From sequence record MZ501058: DNA of 64,000 bases. One strand, 5' to 3'. The stretch is from Escherichia phage DaisyDussoix. Of this stretch, positions 14,292-48,639 are shown one piece after another (within the stretch, counting starts at the first letter, position 1; every line of letters begins with the position of its first letter). Below the pieces are notes generated by a model. The model saw only the letters and a list, made by a program, of their open reading frames with translations, did no database searches and was not told the origin of the DNA. The position numbers and the translations under genes are program-made.

Positions 14292-14632
14292 TATTGTTCC
14301 TTGAGCGAAGAAGAAAGTTCAGCATATACTTTATCTAACTCAAACCCTATGCGAAGGGATACGTTAGTCCTCCGTTGTTTAAGTAACCACTCGGATATGT
14401 TAGGGATGCCAGCTAATCTGTGCGGTACCACCCTACACAGCTTTTCCGAAGTATCATAAACAGGAACTTTACGTTCTTTTACTGGAAACTTCCTTGTTTC
14501 CCATTTTTTATTCTTCACTGTCATATCTCTCCGAGGGATTAAATTCACCAAACAGCTCTTTAACTCCCCTAAGGTATAGCTGATGGGCTTCTTCCGGGGT
14601 ATCTCGTCTACCAAAAATATGCTGCTTCCCAT
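14291..14632 (-). CDS. hypothetical protein (overlaps HNH gene; true start likely internal)
   Basis: ORF track 113 aa. Confidence 0.3.
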   Translation of the reverse strand: MGSSIFLVDEIPRKKPISYTLGELKSCLVNLIPRRDMTVKNKKWETRKFPVKERKVPVYDTSEKLCRVVPHRLAGIPNISEWLLKQRRTNVSLRIGFELDKVYAELSSSLKEQ

Positions 14633-15038
14633 CGCAGTAAGCGTAGGCCATATACCTATTACCTCGTTTTACAACTCCAGTGAATCCGGTAGAATTAGTA
14701 GAACACTTCTTATTCTTTCCATTTTCGGAATAGGTAGCCTTACGTAAATTATCCCACAAGTTGTTTAAACTATCACCGTCTTTATGGTCGATAGTTTTAT
14801 CTCCAGGATCTTCGCCTGTCTTTATAAACCAGATTATTCTATGGGCTAAGTAAGCTGTCCGCTCCCCATTTATCGTAAACTCTAGCTGTCTCCCAGTTTT
14901 CATTTTGGAGCCCGCTACCTTTCCCTTCCTTGGGCCAGATAACCAAATTAAGTCCCCAGTACTTTCGTCATACCTAAGCTTTTCTAGGATAAATGCCATA
15001 GGAGGCATTGGTTTATGCGTCTTCATTAGTTGCTCCAA
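14508..15038 (-). CDS. HNH homing endonuclease (AP2-domain type)
   Basis: 176 aa; AYLAHRIIW...IDHKDGDSLNNLWDNL. Confidence 0.75.
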   Translation of the reverse strand: MEQLMKTHKPMPPMAFILEKLRYDESTGDLIWLSGPRKGKVAGSKMKTGRQLEFTINGERTAYLAHRIIWFIKTGEDPGDKTIDHKDGDSLNNLWDNLRKATYSENGKNKKCSTNSTGFTGVVKRGNRYMAYAYCDGKQHIFGRRDTPEEAHQLYLRGVKELFGEFNPSERYDSEE

Positions 15039-17919
15039 GTTCGGACAGTACTTCTTCTGCCATAGCCTTCTCTTCCTCTGTCATGAATTTGAAAGGAATT
15101 GGCATACACTCGATTTTACAATAGGTTCTGTACCAGTCTACGATATTTTCAGTGTTCATATCCTTACCAATACCCATCATACCAAGATACATTCTAGCAT
15201 ATTTTGGGTTAGCACTCTGACCTGTTTTAAGGAAGAAGTCTTTCTTCTTACCCTTCAGAGCTTCTATGAATGGTTTAATAGTTACATTTGAACACTTCTT
15301 AATATCTTCCCAGAACATCTCGTGCATCTTATGGAAGAATGCAGCTCGATCATTCGGTTTATCTTTGATATATTGTTCAACATGCTCAACTGTTACATCT
15401 TTAAAAGACTCAAGATGATAATAGCGAACAAGAAGTAGTTTAGCTTCATATGCATCTGCATGACGTGGAGCACAATAATCTGGAGTTGAATGCAGAATAG
15501 CTTTGATTCGCTCTTCCGTATATTCTTTTCCTGCACCTTCGATAGTTCCCCAGCTTTCACTGAAAATATCAATAGTTGCACCCTGATCAAGCAAATAATA
15601 ACGTAAAGTACTAGTATAGTTCCTAGATTCCAGCTCCCTACGACGTGCGTATAATTGCTGTGCTAACTCCAGCCAACCTTCATCAATGTTATATTGCTCA
15701 GAACCTGCGGAGAATCCACTCGTAGATTTATCAATAAAATAATAAATGTTCTGAGCGCCACGGTCGCGCCTGATTGCTTGGAAACGCATGTTTGGCGCTT
15801 GGTTGCTGGTTCTAGTAATAACGAATACGTTATCAAAGTAGTTGAAGTCAACGCCACTTGTTACTGATGGACTACATAATAAGCAATCAATTTGTTGGTC
15901 AATTAGCTCATTAGTTGTGTAATCCAGAATACGTCGAATATCTACATCAGACGTAGAGTTTGAGTGGATTTCCTTAACTAATGCACCAGTATTACGACGC
16001 AGTGCCATACCCTTCTCATTCAGTTCATCCGGGCCACAGTCAGATACTAGGATAGATTTCTCCCCCATCTCTAGCGAAGTCTGAAGTGCAACCCAAATAC
16101 TGGATTCATCCGGGAACTCATAAGCATGAGCTTTTGACAGCATCTTACGGTGGTGATTATAAAATGCAACCGGTTTATCAAACTCAATCAAGGAACCATA
16201 TGCTTCAATTGTTTCTGCACTAATATCACCATCTGATAATATAATGATTTTTGCAGTTGCAAGAATATCCCGAAGAACCTGAATACATTCACGACGCTGT
16301 TTAACAACCGGGGCGAATAATAGGTCATTCATTACAGCATCACATTCATCGATAAAGATTGCATCGATTTGACCAATAAAACTCTTGAACTTATGCAAAG
16401 AGTGAATAGTTGTGGACATACGGTCAATAGCGCCACGCTTAAAATTAAGCATATCTACAGACTTATCATATTGTCCTGCACTAAATTTCTTAGCATTTGA
16501 AGATACCAGTGCTCGAGTATTGGTAATTGCTAAGAAATTACCTTTAATAACTCCTGAATCTAACCAACGCACAACCGCCGTAGTTTTACCTGTACCTAGA
16601 CTTGCTTTTACAAAAGTCATATAACCTTCTGGTGGTACAGTATTTAATTTCAAGAAGTTATCAGTTTCTAGGGAATTAGTTTCTAGCTTTTTAAGTGGAA
16701 TACCTTTTAAAACATCCGGTATATCACGTTTAGAATTATTAACAAACGCTTTCAGAGCCTGTTTACGACCGTTATTAAAGTAATCTTGAATATTACGACT
16801 ATTATCTTTAGTTGCAATGTATTCTGATAAGGCTGGACGGATTTCTTTTTCTAGCCATGCGAAGTCAACACCATCCTCTAAAGCTCTGTGATAAAGTTTA
16901 GGTATGATACGTAGGTACACCCCATCCTCAGCTTCTTCTAGTTCGCTGATAGTTTCCTCTACTTTATCGGAGGCAGCTTTTTTACCTTTAATTTGATCGA
17001 GTAGAGAGTAGAATTCCTCTTTAAACTCTCCTCTAGTTGTTTCATAGTCAACCAGGTTATTAGGTAAATTTACCTTTGAGCCTTTAACAAATACCAGACG
17101 TGAAGCACCCTCCGCTTTAAACGGATCAACTATACCATCAGTAAATAAAGGATCTGCAAAATAGTGGAGCTGTACGGAAGAGTAATAAGCTAAGTCGGCA
17201 ATATCAAAGCCATACTTTTGTCTACTACTTTCGTTGATAGATGTAAATAAGAACTTGATCTGACCCTGCGTAACTTTAACATTAGATTCTAGTATTAAGT
17301 GCATTCGGATACCTGGTTTTAGGCCAGCCGAAGACGATGCATGAGCGATAAACCCTGCATCAAGAGGAAACATATCCTCGCTAATACTATTTAACATCCT
17401 AATAATATGTCGAGCCATGCCAACAAGATCAAACTTGTTACAACCTCCTGTATCTACAATACCATCCACGTCCATTGCAATTATATGACTTGGATTAGAT
17501 ACATTAAAGTTGCCCTTCTTACGTCGCACATTATTTTTGGGTGCAAGACATCGACCTCGTACCGCAACGATATGAGGGTCAGACGTTAAACGTCTCATAA
17601 GAGGGAGCATTTCTACTAGGGTTTGAGGATCAACTTCATCAATTACATCAAACTTGAAGGGCATTGAAGCTGGTTTACCTTCAGGATGCTTTGAGGAAAA
17701 TCTTTTAGCAAAAAGATAGTCTTCTGCTTTAACTTCTCGCCAATTGCCTGTGGCTAAATCGCGATGAAATCCTGCATGACCTTGTAGGATTGAGAACACA
17801 ACAATACTCCTGTATTGGAAATGAAATAAGTTTTCTTTAGGACTATTCAGAAAGAATAGAACAACTGTTACTGTCAATTTCTCAACAATTAATCGCAAAT
17901 ACTGAAGGGGGGGTGGCAA
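15013..17919 (-). CDS. large SF2-type ATPase/helicase, putative replication origin-binding protein (likely true start ATG at 17664)
   Basis: Walker A SLGTGKTT, Walker B IFIDECD; track start is TTG with odd 85-aa N-terminal extension. Confidence 0.65.
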   Translation of the reverse strand: MPPPLQYLRLIVEKLTVTVVLFFLNSPKENLFHFQYRSIVVFSILQGHAGFHRDLATGNWREVKAEDYLFAKRFSSKHPEGKPASMPFKFDVIDEVDPQTLVEMLPLMRRLTSDPHIVAVRGRCLAPKNNVRRKKGNFNVSNPSHIIAMDVDGIVDTGGCNKFDLVGMARHIIRMLNSISEDMFPLDAGFIAHASSSAGLKPGIRMHLILESNVKVTQGQIKFLFTSINESSRQKYGFDIADLAYYSSVQLHYFADPLFTDGIVDPFKAEGASRLVFVKGSKVNLPNNLVDYETTRGEFKEEFYSLLDQIKGKKAASDKVEETISELEEAEDGVYLRIIPKLYHRALEDGVDFAWLEKEIRPALSEYIATKDNSRNIQDYFNNGRKQALKAFVNNSKRDIPDVLKGIPLKKLETNSLETDNFLKLNTVPPEGYMTFVKASLGTGKTTAVVRWLDSGVIKGNFLAITNTRALVSSNAKKFSAGQYDKSVDMLNFKRGAIDRMSTTIHSLHKFKSFIGQIDAIFIDECDAVMNDLLFAPVVKQRRECIQVLRDILATAKIIILSDGDISAETIEAYGSLIEFDKPVAFYNHHRKMLSKAHAYEFPDESSIWVALQTSLEMGEKSILVSDCGPDELNEKGMALRRNTGALVKEIHSNSTSDVDIRRILDYTTNELIDQQIDCLLCSPSVTSGVDFNYFDNVFVITRTSNQAPNMRFQAIRRDRGAQNIYYFIDKSTSGFSAGSEQYNIDEGWLELAQQLYARRRELESRNYTSTLRYYLLDQGATIDIFSESWGTIEGAGKEYTEERIKAILHSTPDYCAPRHADAYEAKLLLVRYYHLESFKDVTVEHVEQYIKDKPNDRAAFFHKMHEMFWEDIKKCSNVTIKPFIEALKGKKKDFFLKTGQSANPKYARMYLGMMGIGKDMNTENIVDWYRTYCKIECMPIPFKFMTEEEKAMAEEVLSELGATNEDA

Positions 17920-18293
17920 CTTCCCCTTTCACGCTACACTGCCGCTTCACTATACCGCACAAATCCTTGAGGATGGCCGCTAAGCCAGATTTGCTCACCT
18001 AATGCTTCATGTACTAGCTCATACTAGATGCAGTATACCTTACGTCATCACTTCTCAGAGTTTTTCACTCTTCCCGTCTCACTTCACAACCACCTCACAC
18101 TAGGTTGCTTCGAGGCCTTACCAGGGTTCCTACGGGGTGTAGATCGCTAAGTATTCTATTAACTATTTGTTTAAAAACTAACACGTAACAGTTAAAACAA
18201 CCCTTAATGGGGCAGCCTAACTGTTCCGTATCGCGGATTGTAAACAAGAAAAATTAGCAAAATCAGTTTTTACTAATGTCTCTCAATTCAATA

Positions 18294-18335
18294 TAAATAT
18301 TATAGCAAGATTTTGAGCATCGTGCAAGTAAATTT
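18294..18335 (-). promoter_or_regulatory. T5-type sigma70 promoter (-35 TTGCAC)
   Basis: rc AAAAATTTACTTGCAC-N18-TATAAT. Confidence 0.5.
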
Positions 18336-18418
18336 TTAAAGAGAATGCTATCATTGGTCTTGAGTACGGATAAAACCGAGCCAAAATGACTCGGTAATCA
18401 GGATTGAGCTAATGAAAA

Positions 18419-18814
18419 TCAATCATCATTTAGGCCTGGGACATAGATTCCAATGCGATTTAATTGACCTTTAGCTTCTTCGAGAATATCTTCGGTGTAC
18501 TCCCAAATATCATCTTCTACTTGCAAAAGATAAGGGGATTCACCAGTTTCGGGGTCACGTGTAATGGCTAAGCCACATGGATGGAATATAGAGAAGTTGA
18601 GGGCAACAATCAAGCCCATGCTGGACAATTCATTCCAGTCAGCTTCCCAACCATCATCTTCATTTTCGTCCACAAAGACACCTACACTAGGGTCTGTTAC
18701 AGAAGTAAACGGAAATGTTACACTAACCTTGTCAACCCCCAACCAACGTGCAAGGAGCCCCTCAGCACGCTCTACCAAACTAGGATCTATCTGACGCCAA
18801 AATACTTGTTCCAT
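18419..18814 (-). CDS. hypothetical protein, paralog A of tandem pair
   Basis: 131 aa; shares W.EL..MGL..ALN...F.P...R..TGE.P...IPGL pattern with 18824..19252. Confidence 0.5.
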   Translation of the reverse strand: MEQVFWRQIDPSLVERAEGLLARWLGVDKVSVTFPFTSVTDPSVGVFVDENEDDGWEADWNELSSMGLIVALNFSIFHPCGLAITRDPETGESPYLLQVEDDIWEYTEDILEEAKGQLNRIGIYVPGLNDD

Positions 18815-18823
18815 TCTGCCTCC

Positions 18824-19252
18824 TTAAGCAGTTAAACCTGGGATCATATACCCGAAACGACGAAGTTTCTGAATCCCCTCATTTACTTCCTCGGGCGAAT
18901 ATGACCAGCCCTCACGTTCATTTACCTGGAAAGCAGGAGCTTCACCAGTGCGATAATTTACAATAAGACGGTGATTTGCAGGCATAAACAGCTTATGATT
19001 CAAGGCAAAAACCAGACCCATTTCATCGAGTTCTTTCCAGTCTACAATCTCTTCTACTCCCTCCCCTAAATCCACGCTAACTCCAATACACGGAGCTTCC
19101 TCTAGCGGGCCTTTAAAGGATAAGAAGATATCGTTATTCTCACACCAAATCTTGAGCAGATTGATGGTTTCATTATACATACCATTAGGGAGAGAGCGCC
19201 AGAAGTTGAGAAGCATAGGATTTACCTCTTTCATGAAAATATTATTGAACAT
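18824..19252 (-). CDS. hypothetical protein, paralog B of tandem pair
   Basis: 142 aa; same conserved pattern as 18419..18814. Confidence 0.5.
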   Translation of the reverse strand: MFNNIFMKEVNPMLLNFWRSLPNGMYNETINLLKIWCENNDIFLSFKGPLEEAPCIGVSVDLGEGVEEIVDWKELDEMGLVFALNHKLFMPANHRLIVNYRTGEAPAFQVNEREGWSYSPEEVNEGIQKLRRFGYMIPGLTA

Positions 19253-23555: not shown

Positions 23556-23579
23556 TATACCCTCCTTCTCTAACTAAGA

Positions 23580-23618
23580 CTACTATTATAACTCATTCGA
23601 AGGCGGATGTCAACAATA
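23580..23618 (-). promoter_or_regulatory. consensus sigma70 promoter for nrdD (TTGACA-N17-TATAAT)
   Basis: rc TTGTTGACATCCGCCTTCGAATGAGTTATAATAG. Confidence 0.6.
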
Positions 23619-23653
23619 TTTTACTATAACATTCTGTAAATTGATCTGAGTCA

Positions 23654-23695
23654 AAAAATTTTATTTGCCAACCTCTATTAAAAATAGTATAATCA
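23654..23695 (+). promoter_or_regulatory. T5-type sigma70 promoter (-35 TTGCCA)
   Basis: AAAAAATTTTATTTGCCA-N17-TATAAT. Confidence 0.55.
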
Positions 23696-23793
23696 CGCGC
23701 CCGTGTACGCGATATAAAATGATTATCTAGTACCATACATCTCCCAATAAAAGCAAGCAAATTTTTTATTTAAATGCAATATCATAGGCTTAT

Positions 23794-23836
23794 TTAAAAT
23801 TGTAGTTGCTTTCTCCCGTATATATTGGTATAATAT
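23794..23836 (+). promoter_or_regulatory. T5-type sigma70 promoter
   Basis: AAAATTGTAGTTGCTT-N17-TATAAT. Confidence 0.55.
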
Positions 23837-23898
23837 ATTTGTAAGTTGATAAACAAGATCTTTTTGTTGATCCTCTGTTAGCGAAGTACACTATAGGA

Positions 23899-48562: not shown

Positions 48563-48639
48563 GCTTCGGTAGCTTAGCGATCTAAAGCACTCGGCTGATA
48601 ACCGAGAGATCGGGGGTTTAAATCCCTCCCGGAGTACCA
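48563..48639 (+). tRNA. tRNA-Ile (anticodon GAU)
   Basis: acceptor GCUUCGG/CCGGAGU, anticodon stem CUCGG/CCGAG loop CUGAUAA, unusual T-loop UUUAAAU, CCA. Confidence 0.6.

What the first reader, a model, noticed from the sequence alone, without database searches (positions are those of the whole stretch)
17665..18290. 600-bp ORF-free, G-rich structured leader upstream of the large ATPase gene, possible origin or regulatory RNA
The track start of the 968-aa gene is a TTG with an implausible 85-aa N-terminal extension (VVLFFLNSPKENLFHFQY...). The first ATG (17664, MPFKFD...) leaves about 620 bp between the promoter at 18294-18335 and the coding start. The interval is strand-biased (C-rich on plus) and contains perfect hairpins (AACAGTTA...TAACTGTT around 18190-18230; GAAGGGG...CCCCTTTC at 17893-17921). 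A long structured leader or replication origin next to a putative origin-binding protein is plausible.
Basis: inference. Interest (0 to 1): 0.5.

Follow-up and report, generated by a model that had tools for sequence, protein, structure and literature searches.

The report
Conserved structured RNA leader of T5 D2
The gap upstream of the phage T5-type D2 helicase gene is a transcribed 5' leader that folds into a large, evolutionarily conserved RNA structure matching no catalogued RNA family; nothing in the sequence marks it as a replication origin.

Summary
The window comes from a T5-like phage (Demerecviridae). The finding lies upstream of gene D2, the UL9-like "replication origin binding" helicase, on the minus strand.

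The ORF-free gap is real, but its limits differ from those given. D2 starts at GTG 17799 (AGGAG 7 nt upstream; the N-terminus is conserved in relatives that have ATG there). It does not start at TTG 17919 or at ATG 17664. The upstream gene ends at 18419, followed by a terminator (18395-18370) and a T5 early-type promoter (18327-18299). That leaves a leader of about 493 nt (18292-17800).

The leader carries a structured RNA of about 390 nt. A 30-42 bp helix closes a 333-nt multi-helix domain with invariant islands.

Covariation is strong:
- 91% of cells pair, against 79% in shuffles and 36-52% in slid controls.
- 28 pairs carry compensatory changes (0 of 500 shuffles reach this).
- G-U pairs place the structure on the sense strand.

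The interior exists in unalignable versions: the window's type in 162 phage records and T5's type in 277. Both keep the same architecture.

There is no Rfam match and I found no literature on it. I found no iterons, no DnaA-box cluster and no strong R-loop signature.

Most likely it acts in cis on the D2 mRNA, perhaps through RNase III processing. The function is unproven.

The parts
18370..18395 (-). Intrinsic terminator of the upstream DUF7415 gene (ACCGAGUCAUUUUGGCUCGG + UUUUAU). It marks the end of the previous transcription unit.
   Evidence: Sequence; inverted repeat I24; T5 record annotates a terminator at the homologous site.
18299..18327 (-). T5 early-type sigma-70 promoter: -35 TTGCAC 18327-18322, 17-nt spacer, extended -10 TGC-TATAAT 18304-18299. 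Inferred transcription start about 18292.
   Evidence: Sequence; promoter annotated at the same place in AY543070 and AY692264; the same promoter profile recurs at least 10 times in the window. The simple consensus scan missed it because the -35 matches TTGACA at only 3 of 6 positions. The start site is inferred, not measured.
17800..18292 (-). The whole 5' leader of the D2 mRNA (about 493 nt), ORF-free in all relatives.
   Evidence: no ORF conserved between types.
18244..18276 (-). P0: promoter-proximal AU-rich hairpin (UUAGUAAAA-CUG-AUUUUGCUAA, 18276-18254) followed by the U-tract UUUUUCUUGU (18253-18244). It resembles a terminator, but the stem is weak.
   Evidence: Stem differs but is kept in L058 (UUAGACAAGU/AUUUGUCUAA). 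Not called by the terminator scan.
18207..18231 (-). P1: nearly invariant element AUACGGAACAGUnnGGCUGCCCCAU. It forms a small hairpin (CAGU/GCUG plus GG/CC) whose two variable bases sit in the loop.
   Evidence: Conserved in the 9 diverse leaders aligned, with two substitutions in the Klebsiella-type L030. Pairs never vary, so there is no covariation evidence (helix 2).
18150..18194 (-). P2, 5' strand of the long closing helix.
   Evidence: Pairs with 17903-17862. 30-42 bp, dG -27 to -40 kcal/mol in 8 sequence types, z -2.1 to -6.9 against shuffles. 14 of 20 aligned pairs have compensatory changes (helix 3).
17862..17903 (-). P2, 3' strand of the long closing helix.
   Evidence: A G-C to G-U to A-U series at one pair across types A, T5 and L026.
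18137..18147 (-). P3, 5' strand (GCGAUCUACAC).
   Evidence: Pairs with 17939-17931. CUACAC/GUGUAG becomes CUGCGU/GCGCAG, CUGUGU/GCACAG and CCAUAU/GUAUGG in other types. 6 of 9 pairs are compensatory (helix 4).
17931..17939 (-). P3, 3' strand (GUGUAGCGU).
18073..18136 (-). P4 three-way junction: closing helix CCCGU/ACGGG (18136-18132 / 18077-18073) enclosing two hairpins (about 18125-18116 and 18107-18087).
   Evidence: The segment folds to the same topology in all 8 types, with 6 different closing helices: CCCGU/ACGGG, ACCCU/GGGGU, GCGG/CCGC, CCCGU/GCGGG, UUCGU/GCGAA, AUCCU/GGGAU. Within-type double change CCCAU/AUGGG in L007.
18047..18071 (-). P5 hairpin (AGAGU-GAAAA-ACUCU, 18071-18057), followed by the conserved single-stranded GAGAAGUGAU (18056-18047).
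   Evidence: AGAGU/ACUCU against GGAGU/ACUCC, AGGGG/CCCU, GGUC/GACC. GAGAAGUG is conserved in types A, K, L058, L059 and L075 but not in the T5 type.
17960..17993 (-). P7 helix (CAAAUC/GAUUUG) enclosing the conserved GGCUUAGCGGCC (17986-17975), whose GCUUAGCGG core is kept in 8 of the 9 leaders aligned (ACUUAGCGG in L059).
   Evidence: Seven different complementary helices at the same place in seven types. Motif conserved in 9 leaders, CUUAGCGG in all of them.
17903..17931 (-). P8 hairpin (UGAAAGGGG-AAGUUGCCAC-CCCCCUUCA).
   Evidence: Stem covaries: GGGG/CCCC, GUGG/CCAC, AUAUGA/UCAUAU, GUAUGA/UCAUAC, GAGG/CCUC, UUAGG/CCUAG.
17843..17859 (-). P9 hairpin (CUAUUC-UUUCU-GAAUAG) between the domain and the ribosome-binding region.
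   Evidence: CUAUC/GAUAG in L030 and CUUUCC/GGAAAG in L058 (read from the alignment).
17797..17811 (-). Shine-Dalgarno AGGAG (17811-17807) and the true D2 start codon GTG (17799-17797).
15013..17799 (-). Gene D2: 928-aa SF2 helicase, annotated in relatives as 'replication origin binding protein'.
   Evidence: Biochemistry of T5 D2 in PMC3632103.

Best explanation
Shown: the interval is the 5' leader of the mRNA for the replication helicase D2, transcribed from a T5 early-type promoter. It contains a conserved, previously unannotated structured RNA of about 390 nt. The order of elements is a promoter-proximal hairpin, a nearly invariant 25-nt element, a 333-nt domain closed by a 30-42 bp helix, one more hairpin, and then an A/U-rich stretch with the ribosome-binding site. 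The domain holds an inner helix, a three-way junction, several hairpins and the conserved GGCUUAGCGGCC.

Inferred: the RNA acts in cis on the D2 message. The long closing helix is the kind of double-stranded RNA that host RNase III cuts. Cleavage there would remove the domain and leave D2 mRNA with a short leader headed by the P9 hairpin. That would set the stability and translation of the initiator helicase early in infection, possibly with a phage or host protein bound to the invariant elements. No terminator and no promoter separate the domain from D2, so D2 can only be made from a transcript that first carries this RNA.
For: Transcription unit:
- Terminator, promoter and start codon.
- No promoter-like or terminator-like site on the minus strand between 17800 and 18290.

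Structure:
- RNAalifold on 9 diverse leaders gives 28 of 51 pairs with compensatory changes.
- 91.1% of cells pair, against 79.4 +/- 1.2% in shuffles (0 of 500 reach this) and 36-52% when partners are slid.
- The closing helix is present in all 8 sequence types, 30-42 bp, z down to -6.9.
- P4, P5, P7 and P8 each have 5-7 different complementary sequences at the same place.
- Numerous G-U cells, and a G-C to G-U to A-U series, place the structure on the sense RNA.

Linkage:
- One copy per genome, always directly upstream of D2, in every T5-like contig found.
- 526 phage records match the interval.
- The region carries no conserved ORF and is left unannotated in most records seen, with only short hypothetical ORFs called over it in a few.
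Against: - No measurement shows the transcript, its ends or any cleavage.
- The usual signature of a cis-regulatory leader is absent. The ribosome-binding site is not consistently sequestered: P(unpaired) is 0.4-0.8 in five of seven types, and the predicted partners are local and differ between types.
- The long-range U-tract/SD pairing that RNAalifold proposed has only one covarying pair (helix 1).
- A 333-nt domain with invariant single-stranded islands is more elaborate than any known RNase III site or stability element needs to be. That points to a further function.
- RNase III susceptibility is inferred from helix length alone.
Confidence: 0.45

Rival explanations
1. A stand-alone functional RNA. 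The domain is excised from the D2 leader by cleavage in the closing helix, as rRNAs are released from their precursor. It then accumulates as a stable 300-330-nt RNA or RNP that acts in trans on the host, on a defence system or on the replisome. The alternative interior cassettes would reflect an arms race or partner specificity.
For: - The paired 5' and 3' ends and the compact multi-helix core with invariant islands resemble stable functional RNAs more than mRNA leaders.
- No SD-masking platform.
- The interior exists in unalignable versions. The window's type is in 162 records and T5's type in 277. They are 40-50% identical between types while the flanks are 80-100% identical, and both occur in Escherichia and Salmonella phages.
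- phiR2-01 carries a hybrid of two types.
Against: - Always linked to D2, with no terminator of its own.
- No evidence of accumulation.
- No partner identified.
- Not found outside T5-like phages.
Confidence: 0.25
2. A replication-initiation transcript. The early promoter fires into the region and the structured RNA forms a persistent hybrid with the template, as ColE1 RNA II or the T4 and T7 origin transcripts do. The hybrid primes DNA synthesis or loads D2, making this a T5 origin.
For: - A strong promoter lies directly upstream of the initiator-type helicase gene.
- The RNA strand has more G than C.
- ColE1 RNA II is a precedent for a folded primer transcript of about 550 nt (my own knowledge).
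- The locus lies at about 48.5% of the T5 genome (59.0-59.5 kb of 121.75 kb). An older electron-microscopy study reported internal origins (cited).
Against: - GC skew of 0.12-0.22 and 1-2 GGG runs in T5 and in the window are ordinary for structured RNA, not an R-loop cluster.
- No iterons, no DnaA-box cluster, and no AT-rich unwinding block apart from the promoter itself.
- The strand-composition and gene-orientation switch lies 5.5 kb away, at 23556-23898.
- Recombitron editing bias suggests mainly unidirectional replication from one genome end (PMC10055335).
- The 'origin-binding' label of D2 comes from its helicase core only.
Confidence: 0.12
3. A riboswitch or protein-responsive sensor. 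The domain would bind a metabolite (for example a nucleotide) or a phage protein such as D2 itself, and adjust D2 synthesis.
For: 5' UTR location, conserved junctions and invariant unpaired nucleotides. Autogenous control through leader RNA is known for T4 gp32 and gp43 (my own knowledge).
Against: - No conserved alternative pairing, terminator or SD-sequestering helix.
- Loop and junction sequences differ greatly between types. This is unusual for a ligand pocket.
- The domain is much larger than known aptamers.
Confidence: 0.08
4. Processive antitermination. The invariant promoter-proximal part (P0 and P1, about 97-100% identical across phages) would bind RNA polymerase in cis, like HK022 put RNA, so that the replication-gene operon is read through downstream terminators.
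For: The first 110 nt or so of the transcript are 97-100% identical between phages whose flanking genes are 70-95% identical. The position just downstream of a strong promoter fits.
Against: No similarity to any antitermination RNA in Rfam. This does not explain the 333-nt domain. P1 shows no covariation because it never varies.
Confidence: 0.05
5. A DNA-level element only (cruciform, protein-binding site or recombination cassette), or a decayed or unrecognised protein-coding gene.
For: There are inverted repeats in the DNA and mosaic boundaries at the element.
Against: - G-U pairs would be A-C mismatches on the other strand or in a cruciform.
- The helices are up to 330 nt apart.
- No ORF is shared between types on either strand.
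- Compensatory changes are not expected for coding sequence.
Confidence: 0.03

Closest known systems
RNase III processing stems formed by sequences flanking a folded RNA (E. coli rRNA precursor stems; phage lambda N-leader; T7 early mRNA sites)
   Same: A helix of 30-42 bp is formed by sequences that flank a folded domain within a longer transcript of an enterobacterial phage. Cleavage would separate the domain from the downstream message.
   Different: Cleavage is not shown. The enclosed RNA is neither an rRNA nor a simple hairpin but a 250-nt multi-junction core with invariant islands. No sequence homology.
ColE1 RNA II and the transcript-dependent phage origins (T7 primary origin, T4 oriF/oriG)
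   Same: A promoter-driven, several-hundred-nt, folded (RNA II) transcript next to replication functions.
   Different: No G-cluster, no mapped RNA-DNA transition and no antisense partner (only one weak plus-strand promoter-like site, outside the leader). No AT-rich unwinding block downstream. Here the transcript continues into an essential protein-coding gene.
Autoregulatory leaders of phage replication genes (T4 gene 32 pseudoknot, T4 gene 43 operator)
   Same: An RNA structure in the 5' leader of a phage replication gene, possibly bound by the gene product.
   Different: Those elements are 20-40 nt and overlap the ribosome-binding site. This one is about 390 nt and ends 30-60 nt before an apparently accessible ribosome-binding site.
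Large ornate bacterial and phage ncRNAs of unknown function (GOLLD, ROOL, OLE, raiA)
   Same: Several hundred nucleotides, many helices, conserved junction nucleotides, phage association (GOLLD, ROOL), unknown function.
   Different: No covariance-model match to any of them. This RNA is part of an mRNA leader, is restricted to T5-like phages of enterobacteria, and occurs as alternative sequence cassettes.

Membership tests
Any Rfam 15 family (4227 models) | Covariance-model score at or above the family's gathering threshold | tested here: not met
   Window at gathering thresholds gives only tRNAs. 17500-18500 at E<=10 gives only four sub-threshold chance hits. Nine related loci at E<=1 give nothing in the leader.
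RNase III-processed leader / processing stem | Double-stranded RNA helix of at least about 20 bp, formed by sequences flanking the domain, conserved across relatives | tested here: met
   30-42 bp, dG -27 to -40 kcal/mol in 8 types. 14 of 20 pairs compensatory.
RNase III-processed leader / processing stem | Cleavage within the helix in vivo, dependent on rnc | not testable with these tools
   Needs end-mapping in wild-type and rnc hosts.
Transcript-primed replication origin (ColE1 RNA II, T7, T4 type) | Promoter transcribing into the element | tested here: met
   Promoter 18327-18299. Sequence-based only.
Transcript-primed replication origin (ColE1 RNA II, T7, T4 type) | G-rich RNA over a C-rich template able to form a persistent hybrid, or an AT-rich unwinding block downstream of the promoter | tested here: inconclusive
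   GC skew 0.12-0.22, with 1-2 GGG runs in the window and T5. The only block with at least 80% AT is the promoter and start region 18265-18305.
Transcript-primed replication origin (ColE1 RNA II, T7, T4 type) | Mapped start of DNA synthesis at the site | not testable with these tools
   The T5 origin is not mapped molecularly in the papers read.
Initiator-binding origin (herpes oriS/UL9 boxes, iteron or DnaA-box origins) | Repeated initiator-binding sites flanking an AT-rich segment | tested here: not met
   Only short two-copy repeats at chance level. One DnaA-like 9-mer against 0.36 expected.
Riboswitch | Conserved folded aptamer with covariation | tested here: met
   This is a generic criterion only.
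Riboswitch | Expression platform: mutually exclusive terminator or SD-sequestering pairing | tested here: not met
   No terminator between the domain and D2. The ribosome-binding site is not consistently paired and its partners are not conserved. The local alternative hairpin 18229-18183 is absent from the other types.
Riboswitch | Specific ligand binding | not testable with these tools
   Needs in-line probing or ITC.
Promoter-proximal attenuator (intrinsic terminator) | Stable G+C-containing hairpin followed by a U-tract | tested here: inconclusive
   P0 has a 9-bp A-U/G-U stem with one G-C pair, followed by UUUUUCUU. Not called by the terminator scan.
Protein-coding gene or leader peptide | ORF conserved in position and frame among relatives | tested here: not met
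   ORFs of 30-77 aa differ in position and frame between the 8 types. Types are unalignable yet keep the base pairing.

The most novel reading that the evidence does not exclude
A new class of large structured phage RNA. It would be released from the D2 leader by cleavage of its 40-bp closing helix and would work as an RNA or RNP in its own right, for example specifying or licensing the still unmapped T5 replication origin together with the D2 helicase, or countering a host defence. Its interchangeable interior cassettes would act as specificity or arms-race determinants.
Probability: 0.25. Interest if true: 0.8.

Novelty: new variant of a known kind. Interest (0 to 1): 0.6.

Why it matters
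- T5 is a classical model phage, and its relatives are common in phage-therapy and food-safety collections. 526 records in the phage collection match this interval.
- In most of the records inspected the 470-620 bp upstream of the essential D2 helicase gene carries no annotation; a few call only short hypothetical ORFs there. The interval nevertheless holds one of the larger conserved RNA structures seen in a virulent coliphage.
- If the RNA controls D2, it is a new layer of control over the start of T5 replication.
- If it acts as an RNA in its own right, it is a new RNA class in a tractable system.
- It also corrects gene models. D2 starts at GTG 17799, and several deposited records carry N-terminal extensions or spurious small ORFs here.
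- It gives the long-open question of where and how T5 starts replication one concrete element to test, even though the present evidence does not favour an origin.

Tried and rejected
- **Rfam.** Searches of the window, of the region at E<=10 and of nine related loci found nothing.
- **Origin features.** No repeat families beyond chance two-copy matches, no DnaA-box cluster and no AT-rich block other than the promoter. The composition is ordinary for structured RNA.
It is real in the window and in T5 but is not kept in the Klebsiella-type, L058, My1 or phiR2-01 leaders. Its 3' arm belongs to the long closing helix.
- **SD sequestration by the upstream U-tract (RNAalifold helix 1).** Only one covarying pair, and partition-function folding does not support it.
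- **Coding potential.** No ORF is shared between types.
- **Homologues outside T5-like phages.** The two-motif pattern hit only T5-like contigs in IMG/VR (31 loci). In metagenomes it gave 8 T5-like hits and 5 chance hits.
- **Distant Demerecviridae (Serratia, Vibrio, Aeromonas).**
  - They have 180-1300 nt upstream of their D2 homologue with no annotation, or with only very short ORFs annotated.
  - nhmmer finds only the promoter, and four Vibrio leaders could not be aligned.
  - Single-sequence fold z-scores for the Serratia and L032-type leaders were +0.4 and +1.9. I therefore make no claim for them.
- **Correlation of RNA type with the D2 N-terminus.** None was evident by inspection.
- **Literature.** Five of six full-text searches found nothing on this element, including one for the invariant sequence strings. 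Two further search attempts failed on term syntax.
- **Not attempted.** A covariance model of the whole RNA, because 333-390 positions exceed the calibration limit. The genome-contig scan was not used, because the phages are virulent and the viral and metagenome scans were already family-restricted.


Full report
**Context**

The window carries 23 tRNA genes at 37-49 kb. The finding region matches 526 records of the phage collection, all T5-like: Salmonella 272, Escherichia 128, Klebsiella 81. The large gene downstream on the minus strand is gene D2 of T5. D2 is an SF2 helicase that databases call 'replication origin binding protein'. That name rests on residues 394-533 matching positions 51-197 of the 820-position Herpes_ori_bp profile (UL9 structures). 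Its helicase activity has been characterised, but no origin binding has been shown (PMC3632103).

**Checking the observation**

- The 968-aa TTG ORF, the ATG at 17664, the promoter and both hairpins are in the sequence as described.
- The coding start is different. AGGAG (17811-17807) lies 7 nt before GTG 17799. The 45 residues from there to the ATG (VFSILQGHAGF...) are conserved. Relatives at 66-78% identity have ATG at that very codon. Phage Stitch and both T5 records annotate the same start.
- The upstream DUF7415 gene stops at 18419. It is followed by a terminator hairpin (18395-18370) and a promoter: TTGCAC, 17 nt, TGC-TATAAT (18327-18299).
- AY543070 annotates a terminator and a promoter at the homologous positions and nothing for the next 471 nt. 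A profile of the region finds the same promoter type at ten or more other places in the window.
- The true non-coding interval is therefore 17800-18418, with a transcribed leader of about 493 nt (18292-17800). The start site is inferred from the -10 element.

**What the relatives show**

In 32 IMG/VR loci the promoter and the first 110 nt or so of the transcript are 96-100% identical. The next 300 nt or so fall into two groups that do not align with each other, at about 36-50% identity. The window's type occurs in 162 phage records and T5's own type in 277. Both occur in Escherichia and Salmonella phages.

Further types occur in Klebsiella-type phages (L030), L058, Pectobacterium phage My1 (L059) and Yersinia phage phiR2-01 (L075). 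The phiR2-01 leader is a hybrid of two types.

Small islands are conserved in all types, at fixed distances from the start codon:
- AUACGGAACAGUnnGGCUGCCCCAU
- GCUUAGCGG
- CAGUGUAG
- GAGAAGUGAU (in most types, not in T5's)

**The structure**

RNAalifold on nine diverse leaders predicts a long helix that joins 18194-18150 to 17903-17862 and an inner helix that joins 18147-18137 to 17939-17931. 28 of 51 pairs show compensatory changes. The formal count on the same alignment gives:
- 91.1% of cells paired, against 79.4 +/- 1.2% after shuffling (0 of 500 reach the observed value) and 36-52% when partners are slid by 1-3 columns.
- 14 of 20 pairs in the long helix and 6 of 9 in the inner helix with changes on both sides.

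The long helix is found independently in each of eight sequence types, at 30-42 bp, -27 to -40 kcal/mol and z down to -6.9.

The segments between the anchors fold into the same sub-structures in every type:
- A three-way junction, closed by CCCGU/ACGGG, ACCCU/GGGGU, GCGG/CCGC, CCCGU/GCGGG, UUCGU/GCGAA or AUCCU/GGGAU, and followed by a hairpin.
- A helix around GGCUUAGCGGCC, with seven different complementary sequences.
- A terminal hairpin with six.

Even inside the window's type there are double changes, such as CCCGU/ACGGG to CCCAU/AUGGG.

Many pairs are G-U, and one pair runs G-C, G-U, A-U across types. Selection therefore acts on the sense-strand RNA, not on the DNA or on an antisense transcript. 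No ORF is shared between types.

Its 3' arm is the beginning of the long helix.

**Is it known?**

- No Rfam 15 family matches, even at E<=10.
- The two-motif pattern occurs once per genome, only in T5-like contigs and always upstream of D2.
- nhmmer finds a single copy in the window.
- Most deposited records inspected annotate nothing here, and a few call only short hypothetical ORFs.
- Full-text searches, including one for the invariant strings, found no description.
- I cannot exclude a description in a paper outside the searchable library.

**How it may work**

Shown:
- A promoter, a leader without internal promoter or terminator, a conserved fold, and obligatory linkage to D2.
- The ribosome-binding site is not consistently sequestered.
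- There is no conserved alternative pairing.

On that basis a classical riboswitch or attenuator is unlikely.

Inferred: the most economical reading is a cis-acting leader whose 30-42 bp closing helix is a substrate for host RNase III. Cleavage would detach the domain and leave a short, hairpin-headed D2 message. The same cleavage would release a compact RNA with paired ends.

The size of the domain, its invariant unpaired islands and its cassette-like diversity suggest it may have a function of its own. I rate this as the main rival.

**The origin reading**

- Adjacency to an initiator-like helicase.
- A strong promoter.
- A mid-genome position, about 48.5% of T5.
- The precedent of folded primer transcripts (my own knowledge).

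Against it:
- No iterons or DnaA-box cluster.
- Unremarkable G/C skew with few G runs.
- A gene-orientation and skew switch 5.5 kb away.
- Editing-bias data that suggest replication mainly from one end.

It remains possible but is not favoured.

**Limits**

- Everything about transcription, processing and function is inferred from sequence.
- The covariation rests on about eight independent sequence types, though these come from 41 distinct sequences and hundreds of records.
- The region between 18047 and 17993 is not resolved into a consensus.
- Distant Demerecviridae have 180-1300 nt upstream of their D2 homologue with no annotation, or with only very short ORFs annotated. I could show neither homology nor structure there.

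**Verdict**

The feature is a real, conserved RNA structure of a kind not yet catalogued. Its function is still to be established.

Noticed in passing
L011 about 1900-2000; also L034, L025 and L075 (phiR2-01) about 1030-1120: Some phages carry an extra ORF-free segment of about 97 nt between the promoter-proximal hairpin and the invariant P1 element. It is flanked by a duplicated TTTTTCTT. It may be an optional RNA module or a small insertion.
   Followed up: partly
window 23556-23898: A 343-bp, 70% A+T intergenic region between divergently transcribed genes, with a TATAAT -10 hexamer (TAGTATAAT, TGGTATAAT) in each half. It sits exactly at the cumulative GC-skew minimum and at the switch of gene orientation. 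On composition alone it is a better candidate for a bidirectional origin than the D2 leader. It has no DnaA boxes.
   Followed up: partly
window 44977, 27394, 52453, 58341, 33711, 40879, 31488, 50332 (+ strand); 10121, 12698 (- strand): The promoter part of the leader profile matches at least ten other sites. This is the family of highly similar T5 early promoters.
   Followed up: no
window 14508-15038 (-): An HNH homing-endonuclease ORF (176 aa) overlaps the 3' end of D2 by 26 nt.
   Followed up: no
window 18419-18814 (-) and 18824-19252 (-): Two tandem paralogous DUF7415 genes (PHROG 2502) lie immediately upstream of the leader.
   Followed up: no
window 18151-18140 (-) and 48573-48584 (+): The 12-mer CTTAGCGATCTA in the leader is identical to the D-arm of the phage tRNA-Ile. 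A related CUUAGCGG is the conserved motif of the RNA. By my rough estimate one or more such 12-mer matches are expected by chance.
   Followed up: no
L032 and L033, -70 to -37 relative to the D2 start: In this more distant group (66% D2 identity) a consensus TTGACA-17-TATAAT promoter sits only about 40 nt upstream of D2. It lies downstream of a non-coding stretch of about 600 nt that contains CCUUAGCGGG. There, the upstream region could be a separate transcript.
   Followed up: partly
L070 (Serratia), L071, L072, L123 and L125 (Vibrio), L074 (Aeromonas): Distant Demerecviridae have 180 to more than 1300 nt upstream of their D2 homologue with no annotation, or with only very short ORFs annotated. 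The Thalassavirus leaders begin with a TTGACA...TATAAA promoter. No alignable similarity to the T5-type RNA and no fold signal was found.
   Followed up: partly
window 15013-17799 (-), residues about 100-215: The N-terminal part of D2 contains HIIAMDVDG, SSSAGLKPGIRMHLIL and QLHYFADP. These look like primase-polymerase (AEP) motifs, and some records call the gene 'DNA primase C'. Pfam gave no hit for this part.
   Followed up: no
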